Under the pieces are notes generated by a model. The model saw only the letters and a list, made by a program, of their open reading frames with translations. It made no database searches and was not told the origin of the DNA. A program made the position numbers and the translations under genes. A stretch of 35,452 nucleotides of DNA, from assembly GCF_003334305.1 (NCBI RefSeq), contig NZ_QOWS01000033.1; one strand, 5' to 3'. Below are positions 2,375 through 11,169 of this stretch, one piece after another; the first letter of the stretch is position 1, and every line of letters begins with the position of its first letter. The DNA is from Escherichia coli (GTDB lineage Bacteria > Pseudomonadota > Gammaproteobacteria > Enterobacterales > Enterobacteriaceae).

Positions 2375-3547
2375 ATGGCTCAGGATTACCACCACGGGGT
2401 GCGCGTTGTTGAAGTCAACGAAGGCACCCGATCTATTACCACGGTGAGCACCGCCATCGTGGGTATGGTCTGCACGGGCGATGATGCCGATGCAAAAATG
2501 TTTCCTCTTAATAAACCCGTGCTGATCACTGATGTGCTGACTGCCAGCGGTAAAGCGGGTGAGTCAGGTACTCTGGCCCGTTCGCTGGATGCCATCGCTG
2601 ACCAGGCAAAACCCGTGACCATTGTTGTGCGTGTGCCGCAGGGTGAAACGGAAGACGAAACCACGACCAATATCATCGGCGCAGTGACTGCTGAAGGTAA
2701 AAAAACAGGTATGAAAGCCCTGTTATCTGCCCAGTCACAGCTCGGCGTTAAACCGCGCATTCTCGGCGTGCCAGGCCACGACACCAAGGCGGTAGCTACT
2801 GAGTTGCTGAGCGTGGCGCAAAGCCTGCGTGGATTTGCTTACCTGTCAGCGTATGGCTGCAAGACAGTGCAGGAGGCGATCACTTACCGCGAAAACTTCA
2901 GCCAGCGCGAAGGGATGCTGATCTGGCCTGACTTTACTGGCTGGGACACGGTGCTGAATGCCGAAGCAACGGCATATGCCACCGCCCGTGCGCTTGGTCT
3001 GCGCGCCAAAATTGACGAGCAGACCGGATGGCACAAAAGCCTGTCCAACGTGGGCGTGAACGGTGTCACCGGAATTTCTGCAGATGTGTTCTGGGATCTG
3101 CAGGACCCGGCAACCGATGCAGGTCTGCTGAACCAGAACGACGTCACCACGCTTGTGCGTAAAGACGGTTTCCGCTTCTGGGGTTCCCGCTGCCTGAGTG
3201 ATGACCCGCTCTTTGCCTTCGAAAACTACACCCGCACGGCGCAGGTGCTGATGGACACGATGGCAGAAGCACACATGTGGGCGGTGGATAAACCGCTTAA
3301 CCCGTCGCTGGCCCGCGACATTATCGAAGGTATCCGCGCCAAAATGCGCAGCCTGGTCAGTCAGGGCTATCTCATTGGTGGTGATTGCTGGCTGGATGAG
3401 TCGGTGAACGACAAAGACACGCTGAAAGCCGGAAAACTCACCATCGACTACGACTACACGCCAGTGCCGCCACTTGAAAACCTGATGCTGCGTCAGCGCA
3501 TCACCGATCAGTACCTGGTGAATTTCGCCAGCCAGGTCAGCGCGTAA
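2375..3547 (+). CDS. Contractile tail sheath protein (P2 FI-like)
   Basis: 390-aa ORF first in the conserved FI-FII-E-T-U-D order; size and position fit the sheath. Confidence 0.8.
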
Positions 3548-3556
3548 GGGGACAAC

Positions 3557-4072
3557 ATGGCATTACCACGCAAATTAAAACACCTGAACCTGTTTAACGA
3601 CGGGAACAACTGGCAGGGGATCGTTGAGTCGCTGACGCTGCCGAAATTTACCCGCAAATATGAGAAGTATCGCGGCGGCGGAATGCCGGGTGCGGTGGAT
3701 GTGGATCTGGGGCTTGATGACAGTGCGCTGGACACAGAATTTTCCATTGGTGGTACTGAATTGCTGCTGTTTAAACAGATGGGTAAAGCCACGGTGGATG
3801 GCATCCAGCTGCGCTTTACCGGCTCTATTCAGCGTGACGATACCGGGGAAGTGCAGGCCGTGGAGCTTGTCGTGCGTGGACGTCACAAAGAAGTGGATTC
3901 CGGCGAGTGGAAGACGGGCGAAAGCAACACCACCAAAGTGACCAGTACCAACAGCTACGCGAAGCTGACCATCAATGGTGAGGTGCTCTATGAAGTGGAC
4001 CTTATCAACATGGTGGAAATTGTGGACGGTGTGGACCTGATGGAAGCGCACCGCAACGCCCTCGGCCTCTGA
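3557..4072 (+). CDS. Tail tube protein (P2 FII-like)
   Basis: 171-aa ORF directly after the sheath gene. Confidence 0.8.
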   Translation: MALPRKLKHLNLFNDGNNWQGIVESLTLPKFTRKYEKYRGGGMPGAVDVDLGLDDSALDTEFSIGGTELLLFKQMGKATVDGIQLRFTGSIQRDDTGEVQAVELVVRGRHKEVDSGEWKTGESNTTKVTSTNSYAKLTINGEVLYEVDLINMVEIVDGVDLMEAHRNALGL

Positions 4073-4429: not shown

Positions 4430-4563
4430 CGGTTGACGATCTGGTGGCAGATATCGCCACCATTTTTCACTGGCCGCCATCCGTTACTGACGTTATGCCG
4501 CTGACCGAAGTGCTGGAATGGCGGTATAAAGCGATTCAGAGAAGCGGGGCCAACGATGAGTGA
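4127..4563 (+). CDS. Tail assembly chaperone E+E' made by a programmed -1 frameshift at TTTTTTG (4384-4390)
   Basis: The -1 frame after the slippery site stays open to a TGA at 4561-4563, encoding ...ADIATIFHWPPSVTDVMPLTEVLEWRYKAIQRSGANDE and overlapping the tape-measure ATG at 4556. Confidence 0.6.
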
Positions 4564-7500
4564 TAACAACCTGCGTCTGCAGGTCATTCTTAATGCGGTT
4601 GACAAGCTCACCCGCCCATTTCGATCTGCGCAGGCCAGTTCAAGAGAACTGGCTGCTGCTGTCAAAAAATCCCGCGATGCAATAAAGCAGCTTGATCAGG
4701 CCGGGAGCAGTCTGGACAGCTTCCGAAAGCTGCAGGCAGAAAATCAGAAATTAGGCGACAGGCTGAACTATGCCCGCCAGCGTGCAAATTTGCTCAGTCA
4801 GGAACTGGGAGCGATGGGGCCGCCTTCGCAACGTCAGGTTGTTGCTCTGGGCCGTCAACGGCTGGCTGTTCAGCGCCTGGAAGAACGCCAGAAAAAGCTG
4901 CAGCAGCAGACGGCGCTTGTGCGTGCTGAACTGTACCGGGCGGGAATTTCTGCGAAAGACGATGCGGGAGCAACTGCCCGTTTAGCCCGTGAAACATCAC
5001 GTTATAACCAGGAACTTTCGAAACAGGAGGCGCGGCTGAAGCGACTGGGGGAAGCTCAGCGCAGGATGAATGCAGCGCGTGCCAGTTATGCCCGTTCGCT
5101 GGAGGTGCGTGATCGTATTGCAGGTGCCGGAGCCACCACCACGGCTGCAGGGCTGGCAATGGGTGCGCCAGTGATGGCGGCAGTAAAAAGCTATACCAGC
5201 ATGGAAGATGCCATGAAAGGTGTGGCAAAGCAGGTCAATGGTCTGCGTGACGATAATGGCAACCGCACTGCACGTTTTTATGAAATGCAGGATGCCATCA
5301 AGGCTGCCAGCGAACAGTTGCCGATGGAAAACGGTGCGGTGGACTTCGCTGCACTGGTTGAAGGTGGTGCGCGCATGAACGTCGCAAACCCTGACGACAG
5401 CTGGGAAGATCAGAAACGTGACCTGCTGGCCTTCGCCAGTACGGCAGCAAAGGCGGCAACAGCCTTTGAGCTGCCAGCGGATGAACTGTCAGAAAGTCTG
5501 GGGAAAATCGCCCAGCTCTACAAAATCCCCACCCGCAATATTGAACAGCTCGGTGATGCGCTGAACTATCTGGATGATAACGCCATGTCGAAAGGGGCAG
5601 ACATCATTGATGTGATGCAACGTCTGGGCGGTGTGGCTGACCGTCTGGATTATCGTAAAGCGGCGGCGCTGGGTTCCACCTTCCTGACACTGGGCGCTGC
5701 GCCGGAGGTTGCAGCCAGTGCAGCAAACGCGATGGTGCGTGAATTGTCCATTGCCACCATGCAAAGCAAGAGTTTCTTTGAAGGGATGAATCTGCTGAAA
5801 CTCAATCCTGAAGTGATTGAAAAGCAGATGACGAAGGATGCGATGGGAACCATCCAGCGCGTGCTGGAGAAGGTAAACGCGCTGCCGCAGGACAAGCGCC
5901 TGTCTGCCATGACTATGTTGTTTGGTAAAGAGTTTGGCGATGACGCGGCGAAACTGGCAAACAACCTGCCGGAACTGCAGCGTCAGTTAAAACTGACAGC
6001 GGGCAATGATGCGCTTGGCTCCATGCAGAAAGAATCCGACATTAACAAGGATTCACTTTCTGCGCAGTGGTTGCTGGTCAAAACCGGAGCGCAGAACACC
6101 TTCAGCAGCCTGGGCGAAACGCTGCGCCAGCCGCTGATGGATATTCTGTACACGGTGAAAAGCGTCACGGGGGCGTTGCGTCGCTGGGTGGAAGCTAACC
6201 CGGAACTGACAGGCACACTGATGAAAGCATCGGCTGTTGTGGCTGCGGTTACCGTCGGCCTCGGCACCTTAGCGGTGGCGCTGGCTGCAGTGCTGGGGCC
6301 GCTGGCAGTGATCCGTCTGGGATTCTCTGTGTTGGGTATCAAAACGTTATCTTCCGTTACGGCAGCAGTAACTCGAACCAGCAGCGCGTTGTCCTGGCTG
6401 GCTGGCGCACCACTGGCACTGCTGCGACGCGGGCTTGCTTCATCGGGCAACGCCGCAGGTTTACTTACTGCGCCGTTGTCGTCTTTGCGCCGCACGGCAT
6501 CACTGACGGGAAATGTCCTGAAAACTGTAGCAGGTGCGCCGGTTGCACTTTTGCGGTCTGGATTATCCGGTTTACGTGCGGTTGCTGTGATGTTTATGAA
6601 TCCACTGGCAGCACTACGCGGCGGGCTGGCTGCCGCAGGCACGGTGCTGCGAGTACTGGCATCTGGTCCACTGGCGATGTTGCGCGTTGCCCTGTATGCC
6701 GTATCTGGTCTGTTAGGTGCTCTGCTCAGTCCGATAGGTCTTGTGGTTACTGCACTGGCGGGTGTGGCACTGGTTGTCTGGAAATACTGGCAACCCATCA
6801 CCGCATTTCTCGGTGGCGTGGTGGAAGGATTCAAAGCGGCGGCAGGTCCCATCAGTGCAGCGTTCGAACCGCTTAAGCCTGTGTTCCAGTGGATTGGTGA
6901 CAAAGTGCAGGCGCTGTGGGGCTGGTTTACTGATCTGCTGACGCCCGTTAAGTCGACTTCTGCCGAACTGCAGAGCGCAGCGGCAATGGGGCGACGATTC
7001 GGGGAGGCACTGGCGGAAGGGCTGAATATGGTCATGCATCCGCTGGACTCCCTGAAATCCGGCGTTTCCTGGTTGCTGGAGAAGCTCGGCATTATCAGTA
7101 AAGAGGCCGCAAAGGCAAAACTGCCGGAAAGCGTGACGCGTCAGCAACCTGCGACGGTGAATGCAGACGGTAAAGTGATGATGCCATCGGGTGGTTTTCC
7201 GTCATGGGGATATGGCTTTGCGGGGATGTATGACAGCGGCGGCTATATCCCGCGCGGGCAGTTTGGCATCGTCGGTGAAAACGGGCCGGAAATTGTTAAC
7301 GGCCCGGCAAATGTGACCAGCCGGAGAAATACAGCTGCACTGGCTGCCGTTGTTGCCGGAATGATGGGCGTTGCTGCCGCGCCTGCAGAGCTTCCACCGT
7401 TGCACCCTTTGGCACTTCCCGCGAAAGGCGGCGAAGCGATGGTGAGTCGTGCAGCCACTGTGCCGCCCGTTCAACGGATTGAGGCACCGATGCAGATCAT

Positions 7501-7633
7501 CATTCAGACGCAGCCAGGACAAAGTGCGCAGGATATTGCGCGGGAGGTGGCCCGCCAGCTTGATGAACGTGAACGCAGGCTGAAGGCAAAAGCCAGGAGT
7601 AACTACAGCGATCAGGGGGGATACGACGCATGA
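4556..7633 (+). CDS. Tail tape measure protein (P2 T-like)
   Basis: 1025-aa ORF with a coiled-coil-like N-terminal region, central hydrophobic Ala/Leu/Gly repeats and the canonical position after E/E'. Confidence 0.85.
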   Translation: MSDNNLRLQVILNAVDKLTRPFRSAQASSRELAAAVKKSRDAIKQLDQAGSSLDSFRKLQAENQKLGDRLNYARQRANLLSQELGAMGPPSQRQVVALGRQRLAVQRLEERQKKLQQQTALVRAELYRAGISAKDDAGATARLARETSRYNQELSKQEARLKRLGEAQRRMNAARASYARSLEVRDRIAGAGATTTAAGLAMGAPVMAAVKSYTSMEDAMKGVAKQVNGLRDDNGNRTARFYEMQDAIKAASEQLPMENGAVDFAALVEGGARMNVANPDDSWEDQKRDLLAFASTAAKAATAFELPADELSESLGKIAQLYKIPTRNIEQLGDALNYLDDNAMSKGADIIDVMQRLGGVADRLDYRKAAALGSTFLTLGAAPEVAASAANAMVRELSIATMQSKSFFEGMNLLKLNPEVIEKQMTKDAMGTIQRVLEKVNALPQDKRLSAMTMLFGKEFGDDAAKLANNLPELQRQLKLTAGNDALGSMQKESDINKDSLSAQWLLVKTGAQNTFSSLGETLRQPLMDILYTVKSVTGALRRWVEANPELTGTLMKASAVVAAVTVGLGTLAVALAAVLGPLAVIRLGFSVLGIKTLSSVTAAVTRTSSALSWLAGAPLALLRRGLASSGNAAGLLTAPLSSLRRTASLTGNVLKTVAGAPVALLRSGLSGLRAVAVMFMNPLAALRGGLAAAGTVLRVLASGPLAMLRVALYAVSGLLGALLSPIGLVVTALAGVALVVWKYWQPITAFLGGVVEGFKAAAGPISAAFEPLKPVFQWIGDKVQALWGWFTDLLTPVKSTSAELQSAAAMGRRFGEALAEGLNMVMHPLDSLKSGVSWLLEKLGIISKEAAKAKLPESVTRQQPATVNADGKVMMPSGGFPSWGYGFAGMYDSGGYIPRGQFGIVGENGPEIVNGPANVTSRRNTAALAAVVAGMMGVAAAPAELPPLHPLALPAKGGEAMVSRAATVPPVQRIEAPMQIIIQTQPGQSAQDIAREVARQLDERERRLKAKARSNYSDQGGYDA

Positions 7634-8115
7634 TGATGGTGCTGGGATTGTACGTGTTTATGCTGCGCACCGTGCCGTATCAGGAGCTGCAGTATCAACG
7701 CAGCTGGCGACATGCGGCAAACAGCCGGGTAAACCGACGTCCGTCCACGCAGTTTCTGGGACCGGACAACGACATGCTGACGCTTTCCGGTGTTCTTATG
7801 CCGGAGATAACAGGTGGCAGGCTGTCGTTGCTGGCACTGGAGCAGATGGCAGAACAGGGGAAAGCATGGCCCCTGATTGAAGGCAGCGGCACGATTTATG
7901 GCATGTATGTGATTGAGGGACTGAATCAGACTAAAACGGAGTTTTTCCGCGACGGTATGCCGCGCCGGATTGAGTTCACCCTGTCGCTCAAACGGGTGGA
8001 TGAATCCCTGTCCGATATGTTCGGTGATCTCAGTGCGCAACTGAATAATCTGCAGGAAACGGCAACGTCTGCCTTAAGCGATATCAGTAAAACGGTGGGA
8101 GGGCTGCTGTCGTGA
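7630..8115 (+). CDS. Tail protein U-like
   Basis: 161-aa ORF whose start overlaps the tape-measure stop; position matches P2 gene U. Confidence 0.75.
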   Translation: MMMVLGLYVFMLRTVPYQELQYQRSWRHAANSRVNRRPSTQFLGPDNDMLTLSGVLMPEITGGRLSLLALEQMAEQGKAWPLIEGSGTIYGMYVIEGLNQTKTEFFRDGMPRRIEFTLSLKRVDESLSDMFGDLSAQLNNLQETATSALSDISKTVGGLLS

Positions 8116-9212
8116 ATTTCAGCTCTGAACTGCTTAACAAAAGCAACAAAACTCCGGCATTCAGCATCAGTATTGAGGGCAGGGATATCACTACTGTGCT
8201 GGATAACCGCCTGATGAGTCTGACTCTGACGGACAATCGGGGCTTTGAAGCAGACCAGCTTGATCTGGAGCTGGACGATGCCGACGGGAAAATCGTGCTG
8301 CCGCGCCGTGGTGCGGTCATTACGCTGGCGCTGGGCTGGAAGGGGCAGCCGCTTTTCCCGAAAGGGGCATTCACGGTGGACGAGATTGAACACACTGGCG
8401 CACCGGACCGCCTGACTATCCGGGCGCGAAGTGCTGATTTTCGGGAAACGCTGAATACCCGCCGTGAAAAATCGTGGCACAAGACCACCATTGGGGAAGT
8501 GGTGAAGGAGATAGCCGCGCGGCACAAGCTGAAGATGGTACTGGGTAAAGACCTGTCGGATAAGCTCGTGGAGCATATAGACCAGACTAATGAGAGTGAC
8601 GGTAGTTTTCTGATGCGGCTGGCGCGCCAGTACGGTGCTATTGCGTCGGTGAAAAATGGCAATCTGTTATTCATCCGGCAGGGACAGGGCAAAAGTGCCA
8701 GCGGTAAACCACTGCCGGTGATCACTATCACACGTAAGGACGGCGACAGTCACCGCTTTACCCTGGCAGATCGCGGAGCCTATACGGGCATAATTGCCAG
8801 CTGGTTGCATACCCGCGAACCCGCGAAGAAAGAAAGCACCACGGTGAAGCGTAAGCGCAGGACTAAGAAGCAGAAGAAAGAGCCGGAAGCGAAGCAGGGC
8901 GATTACCTGGTGGGTACGGATGAAAACGTGCTGGTACTTAATCGCACTTATGCCAACCGGAGCAACGCTGAACGGGCAGCGAAAATGCAGTGGGAACGCC
9001 TGCAACGCGGCGTTGCGTCATTCTCGCTACAACTGGCGGAAGGGCGGGCAGATCTCTACACGGAAATGCCAGTGAAAGTCAGTGGCTTTAAACAGCCGAT
9101 AGATGATGCGGAATGGACCATTACGACTCTGACACATACCGTCAGCCCGGATAATGGTTTTACGACCAGTCTTGAGCTTGAAGTGAAGGTTGATGATCTC
9201 GAAATGGAATGA
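8112..9212 (+). CDS. Tail protein D-like (late tail gene)
   Basis: 366-aa ORF with a GTG start overlapping the U stop; position matches P2 gene D. Confidence 0.75.
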   Translation: MNFSSELLNKSNKTPAFSISIEGRDITTVLDNRLMSLTLTDNRGFEADQLDLELDDADGKIVLPRRGAVITLALGWKGQPLFPKGAFTVDEIEHTGAPDRLTIRARSADFRETLNTRREKSWHKTTIGEVVKEIAARHKLKMVLGKDLSDKLVEHIDQTNESDGSFLMRLARQYGAIASVKNGNLLFIRQGQGKSASGKPLPVITITRKDGDSHRFTLADRGAYTGIIASWLHTREPAKKESTTVKRKRRTKKQKKEPEAKQGDYLVGTDENVLVLNRTYANRSNAERAAKMQWERLQRGVASFSLQLAEGRADLYTEMPVKVSGFKQPIDDAEWTITTLTHTVSPDNGFTTSLELEVKVDDLEME

Positions 9213-9302
9213 TTCTTCACAATGGAGAACTTTTAAGTTTGAAAAATGGAATAATGCGATATCATTATTGTGAATTTAGCAAAAATGGGGAGAACTCGAA
9301 AA

Positions 9303-9521
9303 ATGATGATTTGCCCACTGTGTGGAAGTGCCGCCCATACTCGCAGCAGTTTTCAGGTATCTTCATTGACCAAAGAGCGTTACAACCAGTGCCAGAACAT
9401 TAACTGCAGCCATACTTTTGTTACCCATGAAACTTTTGTTCGTTCGATTGCAACGCCAAAAGAGTCAAATCCGGTTCAGCCGCATCCTCATAAATTTAAA
9501 CAGGTGGGTTTGCCGATTTAA
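9303..9521 (+). CDS. ogr: Ogr/Delta-type zinc-finger late transcription activator
   Basis: CPLCGSAAHTRSS...YNQCQNINCSHTF is a C4 zinc-finger pattern like P2 Ogr; start placed at the Met preceding CPLC, with a GGGAGA Shine-Dalgarno upstream. Confidence 0.75.
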   Translation: MMICPLCGSAAHTRSSFQVSSLTKERYNQCQNINCSHTFVTHETFVRSIATPKESNPVQPHPHKFKQVGLPI

Positions 9522-9585
9522 ATGGCGACATAACTACATGATTTAAAACTATACTTTTCTATAAGTTGAGGTTAAATTAACAATG

Positions 9586-9762
9586 CCTGACGTTAGCGGG
9601 GATTTATCCCCACTCCGTAGATATGTAGTTTGTCGCTTTGCGACTGCGGACCGATTACCTGATTGCCATGTAATCGGACGCCGACTTGTTAAGCTTTCTG
9701 GGCTAACTGGTTGTTATTTTTTATTTAGTTAGGGCCATGCGCTTGCGCTAAGAGACGTCAGG
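9586..9762 (+). ncRNA. Candidate structured non-coding RNA upstream of the reverse transcriptase (retron msr/msd-like or DRT-type ncRNA)
   Basis: Long-range inverted repeat CCTGACGTTAGCG (9586-9598) with CGCTA-AGAG-ACGTCAGG (9746-9762) enclosing hairpins at 9598-9611, 9632-9644 and 9651-9677; no convincing ORF inside. Confidence 0.4.
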
Positions 9763-9782
9763 TATCTATGGAGGAACAAGTT

Positions 9783-9956
9783 ATGGATACAAACGAACTT
9801 GGCTTAGTTAAGGCGCGTGTTGAACTGATCACCGCTATGCTCAAATGCGCAACCGCGTTTGTTGGCTTAGTTGGTGCGGTTTACGCCGTTCTTAACATGG
9901 CCTTCAACTACAACAATTTAACTCATGACAATAGAAGTTCAAAGGTGGGAAGATAA
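9783..9956 (+). CDS. Small hypothetical protein with one hydrophobic helix (possible small effector, or frameshifted RT N-terminus)
   Basis: Only open frame across 9768-9956; GGAGGA Shine-Dalgarno about 7 nt before the ATG at 9783; hydrophobic stretch AFVGLVGAVYAVLNMAF; overlaps the RT start by about 30 nt in another frame. Confidence 0.3.
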   Translation: MDTNELGLVKARVELITAMLKCATAFVGLVGAVYAVLNMAFNYNNLTHDNRSSKVGR

Positions 9957-10698
9957 ATTTGAGATTAAGCCCGGGGTTTGGGTTTATGTCCCAAGCGTTG
10001 AGGCACGTAAAGTCGGAGGGAAGATACTTCAGGCTGTCAGAAACAAGTGGATTCCGCCACTCTATTTTTACCATCTAAGAACTGGTGGGCATCTTAAAGC
10101 TGCCAGATTACACTTAAAAAGTGATTTTTTTGCCGTTGTTGATATTAAACAATTTTTTCAGTCAACGAGCCGTAGTCGTATCACCCGTGATCTAAAGAGC
10201 TACTTCACCTATTCTCAAGCGCGGGAAATCTCAACATTTTCAACTGTAAGAAACTTGTCCCATAGTCCACATAAGCATGTCCTCCCTTTTGGTTTTGTTC
10301 AATCTCCAATACTTGCAACCCTCTGCTTAGATAAAAGTTATTTTGGTAGCTTACTACGCCGATTGAACAAACATCATGATCTCAAGCTAAGTGTGTTTAT
10401 GGATGATGTGATCATCTCGTCAAACGATTTGGCCCAATTACAAGCGGCTTACGACGAAGCACTAGTGGCAATGCGTAAATCTGGTTATCAAGCCAACATG
10501 AGTAAAACTCAGGCACCATCGTCAAAGATTAGCGTGTTTAATTTAACTTTGAGTAAGGGAGTTATGAAAGTCACATCTCAGAAAATGAGTGACTTCCTGA
10601 TTGATTTCTATTCAAGCAATTATGAGCCGCACAGAATAGGGGTCAAAAACTACGTCGAAGCTGTTAATCCAGGGCAAGCGAAACTCTTTAAGTTGTAA
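9925..10698 (+). CDS. Compact reverse transcriptase (retron/Abi/DRT-like RT domain)
   Basis: RT motifs readable in the translation: fingers FEIKPGVWVYVPS, motif A VVDIKQFFQS, motif B LPFGFVQSPILATLCL, catalytic YxDD box FMDD; AT-rich with rare codons (AGA, ATA, CTA). Confidence 0.75.
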   Translation: MTIEVQRWEDKFEIKPGVWVYVPSVEARKVGGKILQAVRNKWIPPLYFYHLRTGGHLKAARLHLKSDFFAVVDIKQFFQSTSRSRITRDLKSYFTYSQAREISTFSTVRNLSHSPHKHVLPFGFVQSPILATLCLDKSYFGSLLRRLNKHHDLKLSVFMDDVIISSNDLAQLQAAYDEALVAMRKSGYQANMSKTQAPSSKISVFNLTLSKGVMKVTSQKMSDFLIDFYSSNYEPHRIGVKNYVEAVNPGQAKLFKL

Positions 10699-10806
10699 TT
10701 GCGATCGCATGTAGTAGCAACTGGGCTTGACTGAATGTCTGCCGCCATTTTGCCGCCACTACTAAAGAAAAAAGGGCTACGCTTTCACGTAACCCCTTGA
10801 TTTATT

Positions 10807-11169
10807 TGGTGGAGCTGGCGGGAGTTGAACCCGCGTCCGAAATTCCTACATCCTCGGTACTACATGCTTAGTCAGTCTTTACATTCGCTTGCCAGCTGCG
10901 GACGGACACGCCACTAACAAACTAGCCTGATTAAGTTTTAACGCTTCAACCCCAGGCAGGGCTTCCACGCGATCTCTTTTGGGTTTGACCTCTCTTGATC
11001 CCCGTCCTAAGAGCGGAGGCTAGGGAGAGAGGGCTCTAAGCAGGTTATTAAGCTGCTAAAGCGTAGTTTTCGTCGTTTGCGACTATTTTTTGCGGCTTTT
11101 TACGAGGCCAACCGCCCCTCGGCATGCACCTTGGGTTTCGCAAATCCCGTCGAATCCAGAATCAGCCCC
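10807..11169 (-). ncRNA. ssrA: tmRNA (SsrA)
   Basis: Reverse complement matches E. coli tmRNA from GGGGCTGATTCTGG (5' end at 11169) to GCTCCACCA (3' end at 10807), including the tag-coding region. Confidence 0.95.

What the first reader, a model, noticed from the sequence alone, without database searches (positions are those of the whole stretch)
9768..9960. Small hydrophobic ORF overlapping the RT start in a different frame: separate effector, or a frameshifted RT N-terminus?
The only open frame across 9768-9956 encodes a 57-62 aa peptide with a strong Shine-Dalgarno (GGAGGA before the ATG at 9783) and a 17-residue hydrophobic segment. It ends about 30 nt inside the RT ORF, which is in the +1 frame and closed by a TAA (9919-9921) just before its ATG. 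The RT as called has only about 12 residues before its first fingers motif, whereas retron RTs usually have a 30-50 aa N-terminal extension. So either this is a small membrane partner of the RT, or the RT N-terminus is encoded here and joined by a +1 frameshift, an inactivating mutation or a sequencing indel near 9922-9954.
Basis: partly seen in the sequence, partly recalled or inferred. Interest (0 to 1): 0.6.

Follow-up and report, generated by a model that had tools for sequence, protein, structure and literature searches.

The report
Conserved helical peptide partnering compact retron RT
The small ORF is a real, separately translated gene for a single-helix peptide that accompanies a compact, apparently unclassified retron reverse transcriptase across Proteobacteria; it is not a frameshift or a sequencing error, and it is the only candidate effector of this prophage-borne system.

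Summary
ATG 9783 (SD GGAGGA 9770-9775) opens a 57-aa ORF that ends at 9956, 32 nt inside the RT gene (9925-10698, +1 frame, TAA at 9919-9921).

It is not an error or a pseudogene. The junction is identical in independent E. coli and Klebsiella-phage records. About 98% of RT homologues start at the equivalent of 9925. Nearly all of about 80 homologous loci from alpha-, beta- and gamma-proteobacteria carry a 40-90 aa ORF in the same place, with a conserved core ending in Asn-Tyr. pN/pS is 0.42 in that frame, against 0.87 and 1.41 in the other two.

The frame offset is +1 in 54 loci and +2 in 7, so a conserved programmed frameshift is unlikely. The peptide is fused in frame to the RT at least four separate times, for example in K. 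pneumoniae.

The cassette is a retron-like module: msr-msd ncRNA, then peptide, then a 257-aa RT, with no HTH or other partner. The peptide's SD pairs with an msr segment, and the RT has no SD of its own.

Best reading (inferred): a Type VI-like small-protein effector whose translation the ncRNA gates. Main rival: a detached RT N-terminal extension. The RT fits none of the modelled retron types.

The parts
9583..9765 (+). Retron-like ncRNA (msr-msd) directly upstream of the small ORF
   Evidence: Fold of 9575-9790: -69.1 kcal/mol, z = -3.2, closed by the a2/a1 stem. The sequence is conserved in Enterobacterales and Vibrionaceae (alignment A5). It matches no Rfam family.
9583..9593 (+). a2 inverted repeat (ATGCCTGACGT)
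   Evidence: Pairs with 9755-9765 (I4). On A5 this helix is 86.5% paired and 4 pairs change on both sides, e.g. G:C to A:U in Vibrionaceae; for the submitted structure (this helix plus the msr hairpin) 0 of 500 shuffles reach the covariation score.
9593..9597 (+). TTAGC motif after a2; G9596 is the candidate branching (priming) guanosine
   Evidence: TTAG is invariant in A5. TAGG, TAGC or ATAGG follows a2 in most of the 55 loci where an a2/a1 pair was found. The role as branch point is inferred by analogy with Ec86 (own knowledge).
9598..9611 (+). First msr hairpin (GGGGATTTATCCCC)
   Evidence: (I15). Four of its 5 pairs change on both sides in A5.
9613..9624 (+). Anti-SD segment of the msr (CTCCGTAGATAT)
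   Evidence: Complementary to 9762-9773 (GTATCTATGGAG), which contains the start of the SD (I5, 56). Score 11 against 6.1 for shuffled 3' arms, 0 of 200 shuffles as good. The equivalent pairing, with different sequences, occurs at the same relative position in other lineages (18 of 55 loci at p<=0.05). On A5: 75.9% paired, 2 of 500 shuffles reach the score, but a +2 slide scores the same.
9739..9748 (+). Conserved GCGCTTGCGC hairpin at the 3' end of the msd, next to a1
   Evidence: ATGCGCT(T/C)GCGCTA is nearly invariant (one T-to-C change) across all 9 sequences of A5, including Vibrionaceae.
9755..9765 (+). a1 inverted repeat (ACGTCAGGTAT)
9770..9775 (+). Shine-Dalgarno GGAGGA of the small ORF
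   Evidence: Duplex with the 16S 3' end: -9.3 kcal/mol. The family median is -8.5 for the small ORF and -2.5 for the RT start.
9783..9956 (+). Small ORF, 57 aa (MDTNELGLVKARVELITAMLKCATAFVGLVGAVYAVLNMAFNYNNLTHDNRSSKVGR)
   Evidence: Annotated by PGAP as WP_000380485.1. Homologues of 57-59 aa occur in eight genera. No Pfam, NCBIfam, PADLOC or PHROG family matches.
9783..9911 (+). Conserved 43-aa core of the peptide, ending in Asn-Tyr; predicted to be one continuous alpha-helix
   Evidence: Family alignment A6: Tyr invariant, Asn in at least 90%. Tyr codons TAT 40 / TAC 33. pN/pS is 0.42 in this frame against 0.87 and 1.41. AlphaFold2: helix 3-41, pLDDT 89.5.
9912..9956 (+). Variable tail of the peptide; from 9925 it overlaps the RT start
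   Evidence: The tail is not conserved, even among close homologues, whereas the RT N-terminus read in the other frame is conserved.
9919..9921 (+). TAA closing the RT frame 3 nt before the RT ATG
   Evidence: The same TAA is present in the 83%-identical E. coli variant locus.
9925..10698 (+). Compact retron-type reverse transcriptase, 257 aa, with no SD of its own
   Evidence: Pfam RVT_1. The best PADLOC model is RT_VI at only 63 bits. NCBIfam retron_St85_RT scores 49.5 bits against a cut-off of 235. The AF2 model has pLDDT 93.7 and its best PDB matches are retron RTs. SD duplex energy is +2.6 kcal/mol.
10396..10407 (+). Catalytic box FMDD (family norm YMDD or YVDD)
   Evidence: Alignment A3: Tyr is present in at least 90% of members and the window has Phe.

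Best explanation
SHOWN. Positions 9783-9956 are a genuine protein-coding gene. It encodes a 57-aa peptide whose 43-residue core is a single long alpha-helix ending in a conserved Asn-Tyr.

The peptide is the constant companion of a compact (about 255 aa) retron-type RT. The module is: msr-msd ncRNA with a2/a1 repeats and a TTAG branch motif (9583-9765), then the peptide gene immediately after a1, then the RT gene overlapping the peptide's variable tail in another frame. No HTH or any other conserved gene belongs to the module. Here it is cargo at the right end of a P2-like prophage, between ogr and the ssrA attachment site.

The peptide and the RT are normally two polypeptides. In a few lineages they are fused in frame.

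INFERRED. The peptide is the system's small-protein effector, analogous to the SP toxin of Type VI retrons. It would be an amphipathic or hydrophobic helix that damages the membrane or otherwise arrests growth when it is made in quantity or released.

Its translation, and that of the SD-less RT behind it, would be gated by the ncRNA: an msr segment (9613-9624) base-pairs with the SD region (9762-9773). This pairing overlaps a1 by 4 nt, so it is probably an alternative to the a2/a1 priming helix rather than simultaneous with it.

RT synthesis would depend on ribosomes that translate the peptide gene (translational coupling). That would keep the two products linked in amount, and the natural fusions suggest they also interact physically. 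How infection would unmask the SD is not known.
For: Real gene:
- A small upstream ORF with the Asn-Tyr-ended core is conserved in 80 of 90 loci held.
- Homologues of 57-59 aa occur in eight genera.
- A profile search returns 86 stand-alone proteins of 42-77 aa.
- pN/pS is 0.42 in the ORF frame against 0.87 and 1.41 in the others, and it is the lowest of the three frames in 32 of 36 pairs.
- The invariant Tyr uses TAT 40 times and TAC 33 times.

Separate from the RT:
- RT homologues are 245-270 aa and begin at the equivalent of 9925.
- The junction is identical in independent records.

Retron nature:
- ncRNA fold and a2/a1 covariation.
- The best HMM and structural matches of the RT are retron RTs.

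No third gene within 2.5 kb in 80 loci.

SD masking:
- In the window the pairing scores 11, with 0 of 200 shuffles as good.
- 18 of 55 loci reach p<=0.05, where about 3 are expected.
- The 5' arm always lies about 25-35 nt after the a2 start and the sequences differ between lineages.

RT without SD:
- Median duplex energy -2.5 against -8.5 kcal/mol for the small ORF.
- An energy of -6 or better in 5 of 61 RT starts against 45 of 61 small-ORF starts.
- The two genes always overlap, by 4-112 nt.

Helix and hydrophobicity. N-terminal net charge is +2 or more in 48 of 61 peptides.

Precedent: in Type VI retrons a 55-79 aa helical SP encoded on the same RNA as the msr-msd is the toxin and is translationally repressed by RNA structure (bioRxiv 10.1101/2025.10.22.683967; bioRxiv 10.64898/2026.04.27.721009).

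Mobile or defence-like contexts: P2-like prophage ends (window, L002, L044, L045), phage tail genes in Dickeya, and a umuDC/resolvase island in K. pneumoniae.
Against: - Nothing here tests toxicity, membrane binding, msDNA synthesis or defence.
- Family-wide the helix is amphipathic, not a classical TM segment (median +4.7 kcal/mol; only 6 of 61 at +2 or less).
- In the fused lineages a membrane-spanning N-terminus would be awkward for a cytoplasmic RT.
- The anti-SD pairing is retained in the fused K. pneumoniae locus. It therefore gates RT production too and is not toxin-specific.
- If the RT is coupled to the peptide, the toxin and the enzyme needed beforehand would be made together.
- The anti-SD signal is weak or absent in most alphaproteobacterial loci. 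On alignment A5 a +2 slide scores as well as the proposed register.
- The strictly conserved Asn-Tyr suggests a specific macromolecular contact rather than generic membrane activity.
- No homology to Type VI SPs could be tested, because no sequences were available.
- The AF2 models show only a free helix, so they give no evidence on docking either way.
Confidence: 0.5

Rival explanations
1. The peptide is a detached N-terminal extension of the RT. It would be a structural or RNA-binding subunit that assembles with the 257-aa enzyme and is needed for ncRNA recognition or priming. It would not be a toxin. The family would then either lack a dedicated effector or use one encoded elsewhere, or use the msDNA itself.
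For: - The peptide sits exactly where canonical retron RTs have their N-terminal extension. The RT start aligns to Ec86 residue 50, and 43 + 257 = 300 aa is about the size of canonical retron RTs of 306-320 aa.
- It is fused in frame to the RT N-terminus at least four separate times: K. pneumoniae P0036, Serratia P0019, P0262 and P0241.
- In the alphaproteobacterial clade the RT ATG overlaps the Tyr codon (AACTatg). This looks like a gene split by a 1-nt shift.
- The RT has no SD and always overlaps the peptide gene, as expected for subunits made in fixed ratio.
- The invariant Asn-Tyr points to a specific contact.
- Anti-SD masking is kept in the fused form.
Against: - There is no detectable sequence similarity between the peptide and the N-terminal extension of any solved retron RT. 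The HMM alignment starts at profile position 41.
- AF2 predicts a free 39-48-residue helix, not a folded domain packed on the RT. The helix is predicted with equal confidence without the RT.
- Hydrophobicity is much higher than is usual for a soluble extension (Kyte-Doolittle 19-residue maximum of 1.6 or more in most members; GxxG-type motif in the window clade).
- Every characterised retron has an effector (own knowledge), and no other candidate exists here.
Confidence: 0.33
2. In this window a programmed +1 ribosomal frameshift between 9922 and 9954 joins the peptide to the RT. The functional enzyme would then be a fusion of about 300 aa, alongside or instead of the two separate products.
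For: - In-frame fusions exist in nature, so a fusion product is compatible with function.
- The offset is +1 in 54 of 61 loci.
- The rare Arg codon AGA occurs twice in the overlap. Rare codons can promote +1 slips (own knowledge).
Against: - The offset is +2 in 7 loci from at least five lineages, including close pairs that differ (L011 +1 and L012 +2; L086 +1 and L085 +2).
- The overlap region has no conserved nucleotide or peptide motif, and its length ranges from 4 to 112 nt.
- The RT has its own conserved ATG and N-terminus.
- The +1 bias is explained by descent from the AACTATG arrangement, with the RT start codon moving in steps of 3 nt.
Confidence: 0.04
3. The split is an artefact or a decay product: a sequencing indel or a recent inactivating frameshift in a formerly longer RT gene.
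For: One related E. coli genome (strain G3) does carry a 1-nt deletion in a T-run inside the RT, so such lesions occur in this cassette.
Against: - Positions 9760-9970 are identical in E. coli C2, E. coli Z0117EC0133 and Klebsiella phage Kp4845-2.
- 29 E. coli genomes and 13 phage records are at least 99% identical.
- The 257-aa RT cluster has 198 member sequences, one of them seen on 963 contigs.
- The same split architecture occurs across three proteobacterial classes.
Confidence: 0.01
4. The ORF is not translated. Its conservation would reflect RNA-level constraints, such as a 3' extension of the ncRNA or the RT translation-initiation region.
For: - The ORF lies directly after a structured ncRNA.
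- In one clade the Asn-Tyr codons overlap the RT start codon.
- The Asn codon is strongly biased (AAC 63, AAT 5).
Against: - Frame-specific excess of synonymous change.
- A strong SD at the correct spacing in 45 of 61 loci.
- The peptide is conserved in amino-acid character while the nucleotide sequence diverges completely between classes.
- Asn-Tyr is retained where the RT ATG lies 10-31 nt away.
- The ORF is read as part of a larger protein in the fused lineages.
Confidence: 0.02

Closest known systems
Type VI retrons (Retron-Vpa2, Retron-Eco12, Retron-Sen3; Mestre et al. 2020 PMC7736814; bioRxiv 10.1101/2025.10.22.683967; bioRxiv 10.64898/2026.04.27.721009)
   Same: - A small helical protein is encoded immediately after the msr-msd, on the same RNA and upstream of a short RT.
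- The small protein's ribosome-binding site is buried in RNA structure.
- The small protein has a hydrophobic helix.
- RT_VI is the best PADLOC model for the window's RT.
   Different: - There is no Cro/C1 HTH gene; that protein is the antitoxin or repressor in Vpa2 and Sen3. None was found in 80 loci.
- The RT scores only 39-78 bits on RT_VI, and other retron models tie with it for distant members.
- The peptide is one helix of about 40 residues, not a two- or three-helix protein of 55-79 aa.
- The peptide gene overlaps the RT gene and is sometimes fused to it.
- The a1 repeat lies before the peptide gene, not after it.
- There is no msd copy of the anti-SD sequence that would let msDNA open the riboregulator as proposed for Vpa2.
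Canonical retron RTs with an N-terminal extension (e.g. Ec86/Eco1, PDB 7v9u, 7v9x)
   Same: - RT fold and motif order are shared.
- The ncRNA is upstream, with a2/a1 repeats and a TTAGC branch motif.
- The first ORF begins a few nucleotides after a1.
- Peptide plus RT together equal the canonical RT length.
   Different: - Here the first 43-57 residues are a separate polypeptide in another frame.
- They show no sequence similarity to the Ec86 extension.
- The retron hallmark VTG is replaced by an invariant (V/A)FN.
- There is no separate large effector gene.
Type IV retron (Ec48/Eco6), with a two-TM effector
   Same: The retron's partner is a small hydrophobic protein, and the partner gene overlaps or abuts the RT gene (PMC7736814).
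   Different: The Type IV partner has two TM helices and lies downstream of the RT. Here there is one helix and it lies upstream. RT_IV is not among the 25 best PADLOC matches listed (46 matched in all).
Retrons with effector domains fused to the RT (I-C RT-Toprim, XI RT-protease, XII RT-TIR, VII-A1 RT-DUF3800)
   Same: The partner can be either a separate gene or a domain of the RT polypeptide within one family, as with VII-A1 and VII-A2 (PMC7736814).
   Different: Those fusions are C-terminal and involve enzymatic domains. Here the fusion is N-terminal and involves a 40-residue helix.
Type I toxin-antitoxin peptides (TisB, Hok, Ldr, SprA1)
   Same: They are peptides of about 30-60 aa made of one amphipathic or hydrophobic helix with a basic N-terminus, and their translation is blocked by RNA pairing at the SD (own knowledge; PMC8309996 listed).
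   Different: The repressing RNA here is a cis element of a retron ncRNA, not an antisense sRNA. There is no sequence similarity. Toxicity is untested.

Membership tests
Retron (general) | RT belonging to the retron lineage | tested here: inconclusive
   The best HMM and structural matches are all retron RTs. Scores lie far below family cut-offs (49.5 bits against 235 for NF038233; 39-78 bits on PADLOC models). The VTG hallmark is replaced by VFN. No phylogeny with reference RTs was made.
Retron (general) | Adjacent upstream ncRNA with a1/a2 inverted repeats and a conserved priming G | tested here: met
   a2 is 9583-9593, a1 is 9755-9765, and TTAGC follows a2. Covariation supports the stem. 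An a2/a1 pair followed by a TAG-type motif was found in 55 of 61 loci.
Retron (general) | Production of branched msDNA | not testable with these tools
   Needs RT-DNA extraction and gel analysis or sequencing.
Retron (general) | Associated effector that confers abortive infection | not testable with these tools
   The only conserved partner is the small peptide. Its activity is unknown.
Type VI retron | RT in the Type VI clade (clade 3) | tested here: inconclusive
   RT_VI is the top model for the window, K. pneumoniae and Dickeya RTs, at 63-78 bits. It is not the top model for the five more distant members tested (P0050, P0057, P0062, P0068, L065).
Type VI retron | Cro/C1-type HTH gene (cluster 2_1) upstream of or overlapping the RT | tested here: not met
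   There is no ORF between the peptide and the RT in the window. No recurrent third gene lies within 2.5 kb in 80 loci. The source paper notes that about 22% of Type VI entries lack the HTH.
Type VI retron | Small helical accessory protein (SP) encoded after the ncRNA | tested here: met
   Position and helical nature are met. Homology to SP clusters 2075, 2760, 3272 and 3897 was not tested because no sequences were available.
Type VI retron | SP ribosome-binding site sequestered in the RNA (hybrid RNA) | tested here: inconclusive
   Anti-SD pairing is significant in 18 of 55 loci, including the window. The alignment-based count is ambiguous as to register. The geometry differs from Vpa2, and there is no msd repeat.
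Programmed +1 frameshift gene | Conserved frame relation and a conserved shift site | tested here: not met
   Offsets of +1 and +2 both occur, the overlap is 4-112 nt, and the tail is not conserved.
Single-pass membrane peptide / type I-toxin-like | Hydrophobic segment able to span the bilayer, with a basic N-terminus | tested here: inconclusive
   The window clade scores +0.7 to +1.9 kcal/mol (Hessa scale, 19 residues). The family median is +4.7. N-terminal net charge is +2 or more in 48 of 61 peptides, but -1 in the window peptide. No dedicated TM predictor was available.

The most novel reading that the evidence does not exclude
This would be a minimal, previously unclassified retron type, widespread in Proteobacteria. 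It is present in thousands of K. pneumoniae genomes and in S. Typhi CT18 and E. coli prophages. Its only partner and effector would be a single-helix peptide of about 40 residues encoded directly behind the msd. That peptide would be interchangeable between a free polypeptide and an N-terminal extension of the RT. Its translation, and with it that of the RT, would be switched by an msr anti-SD element that competes with the priming helix. In such a system the ncRNA fold would decide between reverse transcription and toxin synthesis, without any HTH regulator.
Probability: 0.35. Interest if true: 0.78.

Novelty: new variant of a known kind. Interest (0 to 1): 0.62.

Why it matters
If the reading is right, this is the simplest retron architecture so far: one ncRNA, one 257-aa RT and one peptide of about 45-60 aa.

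It would extend the newly described 'small-protein' logic of Type VI retrons to a family that has no HTH antitoxin.

The family escapes current defence-system annotation. PADLOC, NCBIfam, Pfam and PHROGs have no model for the peptide, and the RT gets only weak, non-specific matches to RT models. Yet it is common in clinically important Enterobacterales and is carried by P2-like prophages.

The natural split and fused pairs offer a ready experiment on whether a retron effector acts while bound to its RT.

Compact RTs with a defined ncRNA are also of practical interest for retron-based genome editing.

For annotation, the result shows that the small ORF should be kept as a gene and that the RT start at 9925 is correct.

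Tried and rejected
1. Sequencing error or recent frameshift: rejected.
2. Conserved programmed frameshift: rejected, because the frame offset and the overlap both vary.
3. A hidden third gene or HTH: none was found when ORFs of at least 60 aa within 2.5 kb were clustered across 80 loci. The only recurrent clusters are the peptide itself, antisense shadows of the RT and lineage-specific neighbours.
4. Vpa2-style activation, in which msDNA hybridises to the riboregulator: there is no direct repeat of the anti-SD in the msd (1 of 18 loci at p<0.05).
5. Using AF2 confidence of the peptide in an artificial peptide-RT fusion as evidence that it docks on the RT: the peptide alone is predicted as the same helix with pLDDT 89.5. 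The high confidence is therefore intrinsic and says nothing about docking.
6. The 20-nt complementarity between 9602-9621 and 9939-9958 (I1): by eye, the E. coli variant locus, which has essentially the same msr (one upstream difference) but a diverged RT, does not seem to keep it. I treated it as chance without a formal test.
7. Family assignment of the peptide through Pfam, NCBIfam, PADLOC and PHROGs: no hits.
8. Looking for the window's RT accession or Type VI SP sequences in paper supplements: none are held or none were found. One request failed for lack of a slot. Homology to Type VI SPs therefore remains untested.
9. Rfam: only the tmRNA matched, and nothing matched the ncRNA.
Full report
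**Setting**

The window's left 10.7 kb is the right end of a P2-like prophage. It carries the tape-measure gene (4556-7633), gpU, gpD (8112-9212) and ogr (9270-9521). The prophage is integrated next to ssrA (tmRNA at 10807-11169 on the minus strand, 295.8 bits), and smpB follows.

Between ogr and the attachment site lies a 1.2-kb cargo cassette: a structured non-coding region, the small ORF of the finding, and a reverse-transcriptase gene.

**Checking the observation**

- The ORF is open from 9768 to 9956.
- The SD GGAGGA (9770-9775) sits 7 nt before ATG 9783. That ATG is the start PGAP uses (57 aa, WP_000380485.1), and all homologues begin there.
- The RT ORF starts at 9925 in the +1 frame, 3 nt after an in-frame TAA (9919-9921). 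The overlap is 32 nt.
- The RT has only seven residues before its first conserved motif.
- In a profile alignment to the solved Ec86 RT, the start of this RT corresponds to Ec86 residue 50. The 'missing' N-terminal extension is therefore a fair description.

**Not an artefact or a pseudogene**

- The cassette is 99-100% identical in 29 complete E. coli genomes from different hosts and laboratories, and in 13 Klebsiella phage records.
- Positions 9760-9970 are letter-for-letter identical in three records I compared.
- The 257-aa RT cluster has 198 member sequences. It includes Klebsiella (one member on 963 contigs) and S. Typhi CT18.
- A search of 1.84 billion cluster representatives with a peptide+RT profile found 293 clusters at E<=1e-30. 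Among the best 150, about 145 are 245-270 aa and match from profile positions 38-44, that is, from the RT start. The short RT is the family norm.

**The small ORF is a real, conserved gene**

- Close homologues of 57-59 aa occur in Salmonella, Citrobacter, Enterobacter, Klebsiella, Pectobacterium, Serratia and Buttiauxella. Their first 43 residues are conserved and their tails vary.
- I fetched 80 loci encoding RT relatives of 31-81% identity from alpha-, beta- and gamma-proteobacteria and scanned them with a script. Of the 90 loci held, 80 have an ORF of 40-90 aa directly upstream of the RT, overlapping its start, with a core that ends in Asn-Tyr.
- The ten exceptions: three are the fused K. 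pneumoniae loci, four look like cut contigs, one is a variant motif my pattern missed, and two are unexplained.
- In the family alignment (A6) Tyr is invariant and Asn is present in at least 90% of sequences. The N-terminus is usually basic (MKK...), and about 30 hydrophobic or amphipathic residues lie between.
- The invariant Tyr is encoded by TAT 40 times and TAC 33 times.
- In 36 pairs of 70-97% nucleotide identity, pN/pS over the 38-codon core has a median of 0.42 in the ORF's frame, against 0.87 and 1.41 in the other two frames. It is the lowest of the three in 32 pairs, and in 8 of 9 phylogenetically separate pairs.
- A profile search with the peptide alignment returned 86 further proteins, all 42-77 aa.
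- No Pfam, NCBIfam, PADLOC or PHROG family matches the peptide.

**Split or fused?**

The two genes are in different frames in nearly all loci: +1 in 54 and +2 in 7 of 61 non-redundant loci. The +2 cases fall in at least five lineages. They include close pairs that differ (Pantoea L011 against L012; L086 against L085).

The overlap ranges from 4 to 112 nt, and the peptide's tail is not conserved. This rules out a conserved programmed frameshift.

The +1 bias has a simple explanation. In the alphaproteobacterial clade the RT ATG overlaps the Tyr codon (AAC TAT G). Elsewhere the RT start codon has moved in steps of three.

The same peptide is fused in frame to the RT in several cases:
- K. pneumoniae, K. 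variicola and K. quasipneumoniae (302 aa...LFNIVPNY|MTLSMSTPSDWLHKFEIK...; indexed in 7802 blocks of the collection);
- Serratia marcescens and S. proteamaculans (309 aa);
- two metagenomic representatives (P0262, P0241).

Relatives of the Klebsiella form in Pantoea and Ewingella are split, so the fusions are derived and independent. They are classic 'Rosetta-stone' evidence that the peptide and the RT work together.

**The cassette is a retron-like module**

- Positions 9583-9765 fold into a structure closed by an 11-bp stem, a2 9583-9593 with a1 9755-9765 (-69.1 kcal/mol, z = -3.2).
- a2 is followed by TTAGC, the context of the priming G in Ec86 (own knowledge).
- Across Enterobacterales and Vibrionaceae, the motifs CCTGAC(G/A)TTAG and ATGCGCTTGCGCTA(A/G)G..(C/T)GTCAGG are conserved, with a compensatory G:C to A:U change.
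- On that alignment the a2:a1 helix is 86.5% paired and has four pairs changed on both sides. For the submitted structure (this helix plus the msr hairpin), no shuffle out of 500 reaches the covariation score.
- An a2/a1 pair followed by a TAG-type motif was found at similar distances in 55 of 61 loci.
- The RT model is confident (pLDDT 93.7) and its best PDB matches are retron RTs: Ec86, Ec83, Eco7, Eco8 and Eco2.
- However, no retron model fits well. RT_VI is best at 63 bits for the window. Six other family members score 39-78 bits on it, and for the more distant ones I-B or II-A models tie with or exceed it. NCBIfam's retron_St85_RT gives 49.5 bits against a cut-off of 235.
- The retron hallmark VTG is replaced by an invariant (V/A)FN.
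- No third gene recurs within 2.5 kb of the RT. In particular there is no Cro/C1 HTH.

**Translation control**

- The peptide gene has a good SD in most loci, and the RT start does not. Median duplex energy with the 16S 3' end is -8.5 against -2.5 kcal/mol. An energy of -6 or better occurs in 45 of 61 small-ORF starts against 5 of 61 RT starts. In the window the values are -9.3 against +2.6.
- With the obligatory overlap, this suggests that the RT is translated by ribosomes that have read the peptide gene. This is an inference.
- An msr segment just after the first hairpin (9613-9624, CTCCGTAGATAT) is complementary to 9762-9773 (GTATCTATGGAG), which includes the first bases of the SD.
- A per-locus search restricted to the same relative windows found such a pairing at p<=0.05 in 18 of 55 loci, where about 3 are expected by chance.
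- The 5' arm always lies about 25-35 nt after the a2 start, and the sequences are unrelated between lineages (for example TCCGTAGAA/TTCTACGGA, CTCTCTGTAC/GTATAGAGAG, CCTCTATTCGT/ATGAATAGAGG, CCTTATCAAGGT/ATTTTGATAAGG).
- On the nine-sequence alignment the helix is 75.9% paired and 2 of 500 shuffles reach its score. A +2 slide does as well, because the register differs between clades.
- The signal is weak in most alphaproteobacterial loci.
- The pairing overlaps a1 by 4 nt and would form a strained pseudoknot with a2:a1. The two are therefore probably alternative folds (inference).
- The pairing is retained in the fused K. pneumoniae locus, so it gates RT production as well.

**What the peptide is**

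- AlphaFold2 predicts one continuous helix, both alone (residues 3-41, pLDDT 89.5) and in an artificial fusion to the RT (residues 3-50). The models therefore say nothing about docking.
- The window's clade is hydrophobic enough for a membrane span (+0.7 to +1.9 kcal/mol on the Hessa scale; a GLVGAVYA motif).
- The family median is +4.7, which indicates an amphipathic helix. The N-terminus is usually basic.

**Comparison with the literature**

Type VI retrons encode a 55-79 aa helical small protein (SP) right after the msr-msd.
- In Retron-Vpa2 the SP is the toxin. It lies on the same 'hybrid RNA' as the template, its RBS is sequestered, and msDNA accumulation on infection derepresses it (bioRxiv 10.1101/2025.10.22.683967).
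- In Retron-Sen3 the SP is constitutively made and neutralised by the HTH (bioRxiv 10.64898/2026.04.27.721009).

The present family shares the position and general nature of the SP and the buried SD. It differs in several ways:
- it lacks the HTH;
- it has a simpler peptide;
- it places a1 before rather than after the peptide gene;
- its msd has no copy of the anti-SD that would let msDNA open the switch;
- its RT is at best a distant relative of Type VI.

My searches of the held literature found no description of this architecture. That is not proof that none exists.

**Verdict**

Shown:
- the ORF is a conserved, separately translated gene and the obligate partner of a compact retron-type RT;
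- the RT start at 9925 is correct;
- frameshift, indel and pseudogene readings fail.

Inferred (about 0.5): the peptide is the effector, gated by the ncRNA in a Type VI-like way.

Main rival (about 0.33): the peptide is a detached N-terminal extension of the RT with no toxic role. This is supported by its position, the fusions, the coupling and the invariant Asn-Tyr.

The two readings are not exclusive. A peptide held on the RT and released or over-produced on infection would satisfy both.

Noticed in passing
window 9520-9854 versus 9855-10700; L002 and L003: An E. coli variant of the cassette sits in a P2-like prophage at the ybjL site. It is almost identical to the window through ogr, the ncRNA and the first two thirds of the peptide gene, then drops to about 78% identity from about 9854 onward. 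This indicates a recombination breakpoint inside the peptide gene. Two diverged RTs (67% aa identity) thus serve a nearly identical ncRNA (three single-base differences).
   Followed up: partly
L003 (E. coli G3), locus about 3540-3615: The RT of this strain has a 1-nt deletion in a T-run, and RefSeq annotates only a 185-aa C-terminal fragment. The peptide gene and the ncRNA are intact. It may be a real inactivation or a homopolymer sequencing error.
   Followed up: no
window 10396-10407: The catalytic box of this RT reads FMDD, whereas at least 90% of family members have YMDD or YVDD. One other member (L060) also has FMDD. Its effect on activity is unknown.
   Followed up: no
window 10660-10680 region of the RT (thumb) and alignment A3: The retron-specific VTG motif is replaced family-wide by an invariant (V/A)FN, and NAxxH by (V/L)xAxxxH. 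These could serve as signature motifs for a dedicated model of this family.
   Followed up: partly
window 9522-10806: The cassette occupies the space between ogr and the ssrA attachment site, at the extreme right end of the P2-like prophage. This is a different site from the P2 hotspot that Rousset et al. 2022 describe (its passage cites the variable locus of Odegrip 2006). The phage-end sequence TCTGCCGCCATTTTG(C/T)CGCCA (10738-10760) is shared with the ybjL-site prophage.
   Followed up: partly
window 9583-9732: A 49-aa ORF (MPDVSGDLSPLRRYVVCRF...) lies entirely inside the ncRNA. It is identical in the variant locus only because the RNA is conserved, so it is almost certainly not a gene.
   Followed up: no
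L007 78-1562; L009 41-619: In K. pneumoniae the fused peptide-RT gene lies beside umuDC and a yedK-like SRAP gene. In some strains a second, 494-aa RT or a resolvase lies upstream. This suggests a variable island that may hold further defence genes.
   Followed up: no
L044, L045 (Salinicola, Halomonas): Distant members of the family (RT 37% identical) also lie next to a P2 gpD-like late-control gene. The association with P2-like prophage ends therefore extends beyond Enterobacterales.
   Followed up: no
window 9739-9748: A GCGCTTGCGC hairpin immediately 5' of a1 is nearly invariant from E. coli to Vibrio (one T-to-C change in the loop). It would be the first sequence copied by the RT. It may be an RT recognition or initiation element.
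   Followed up: no
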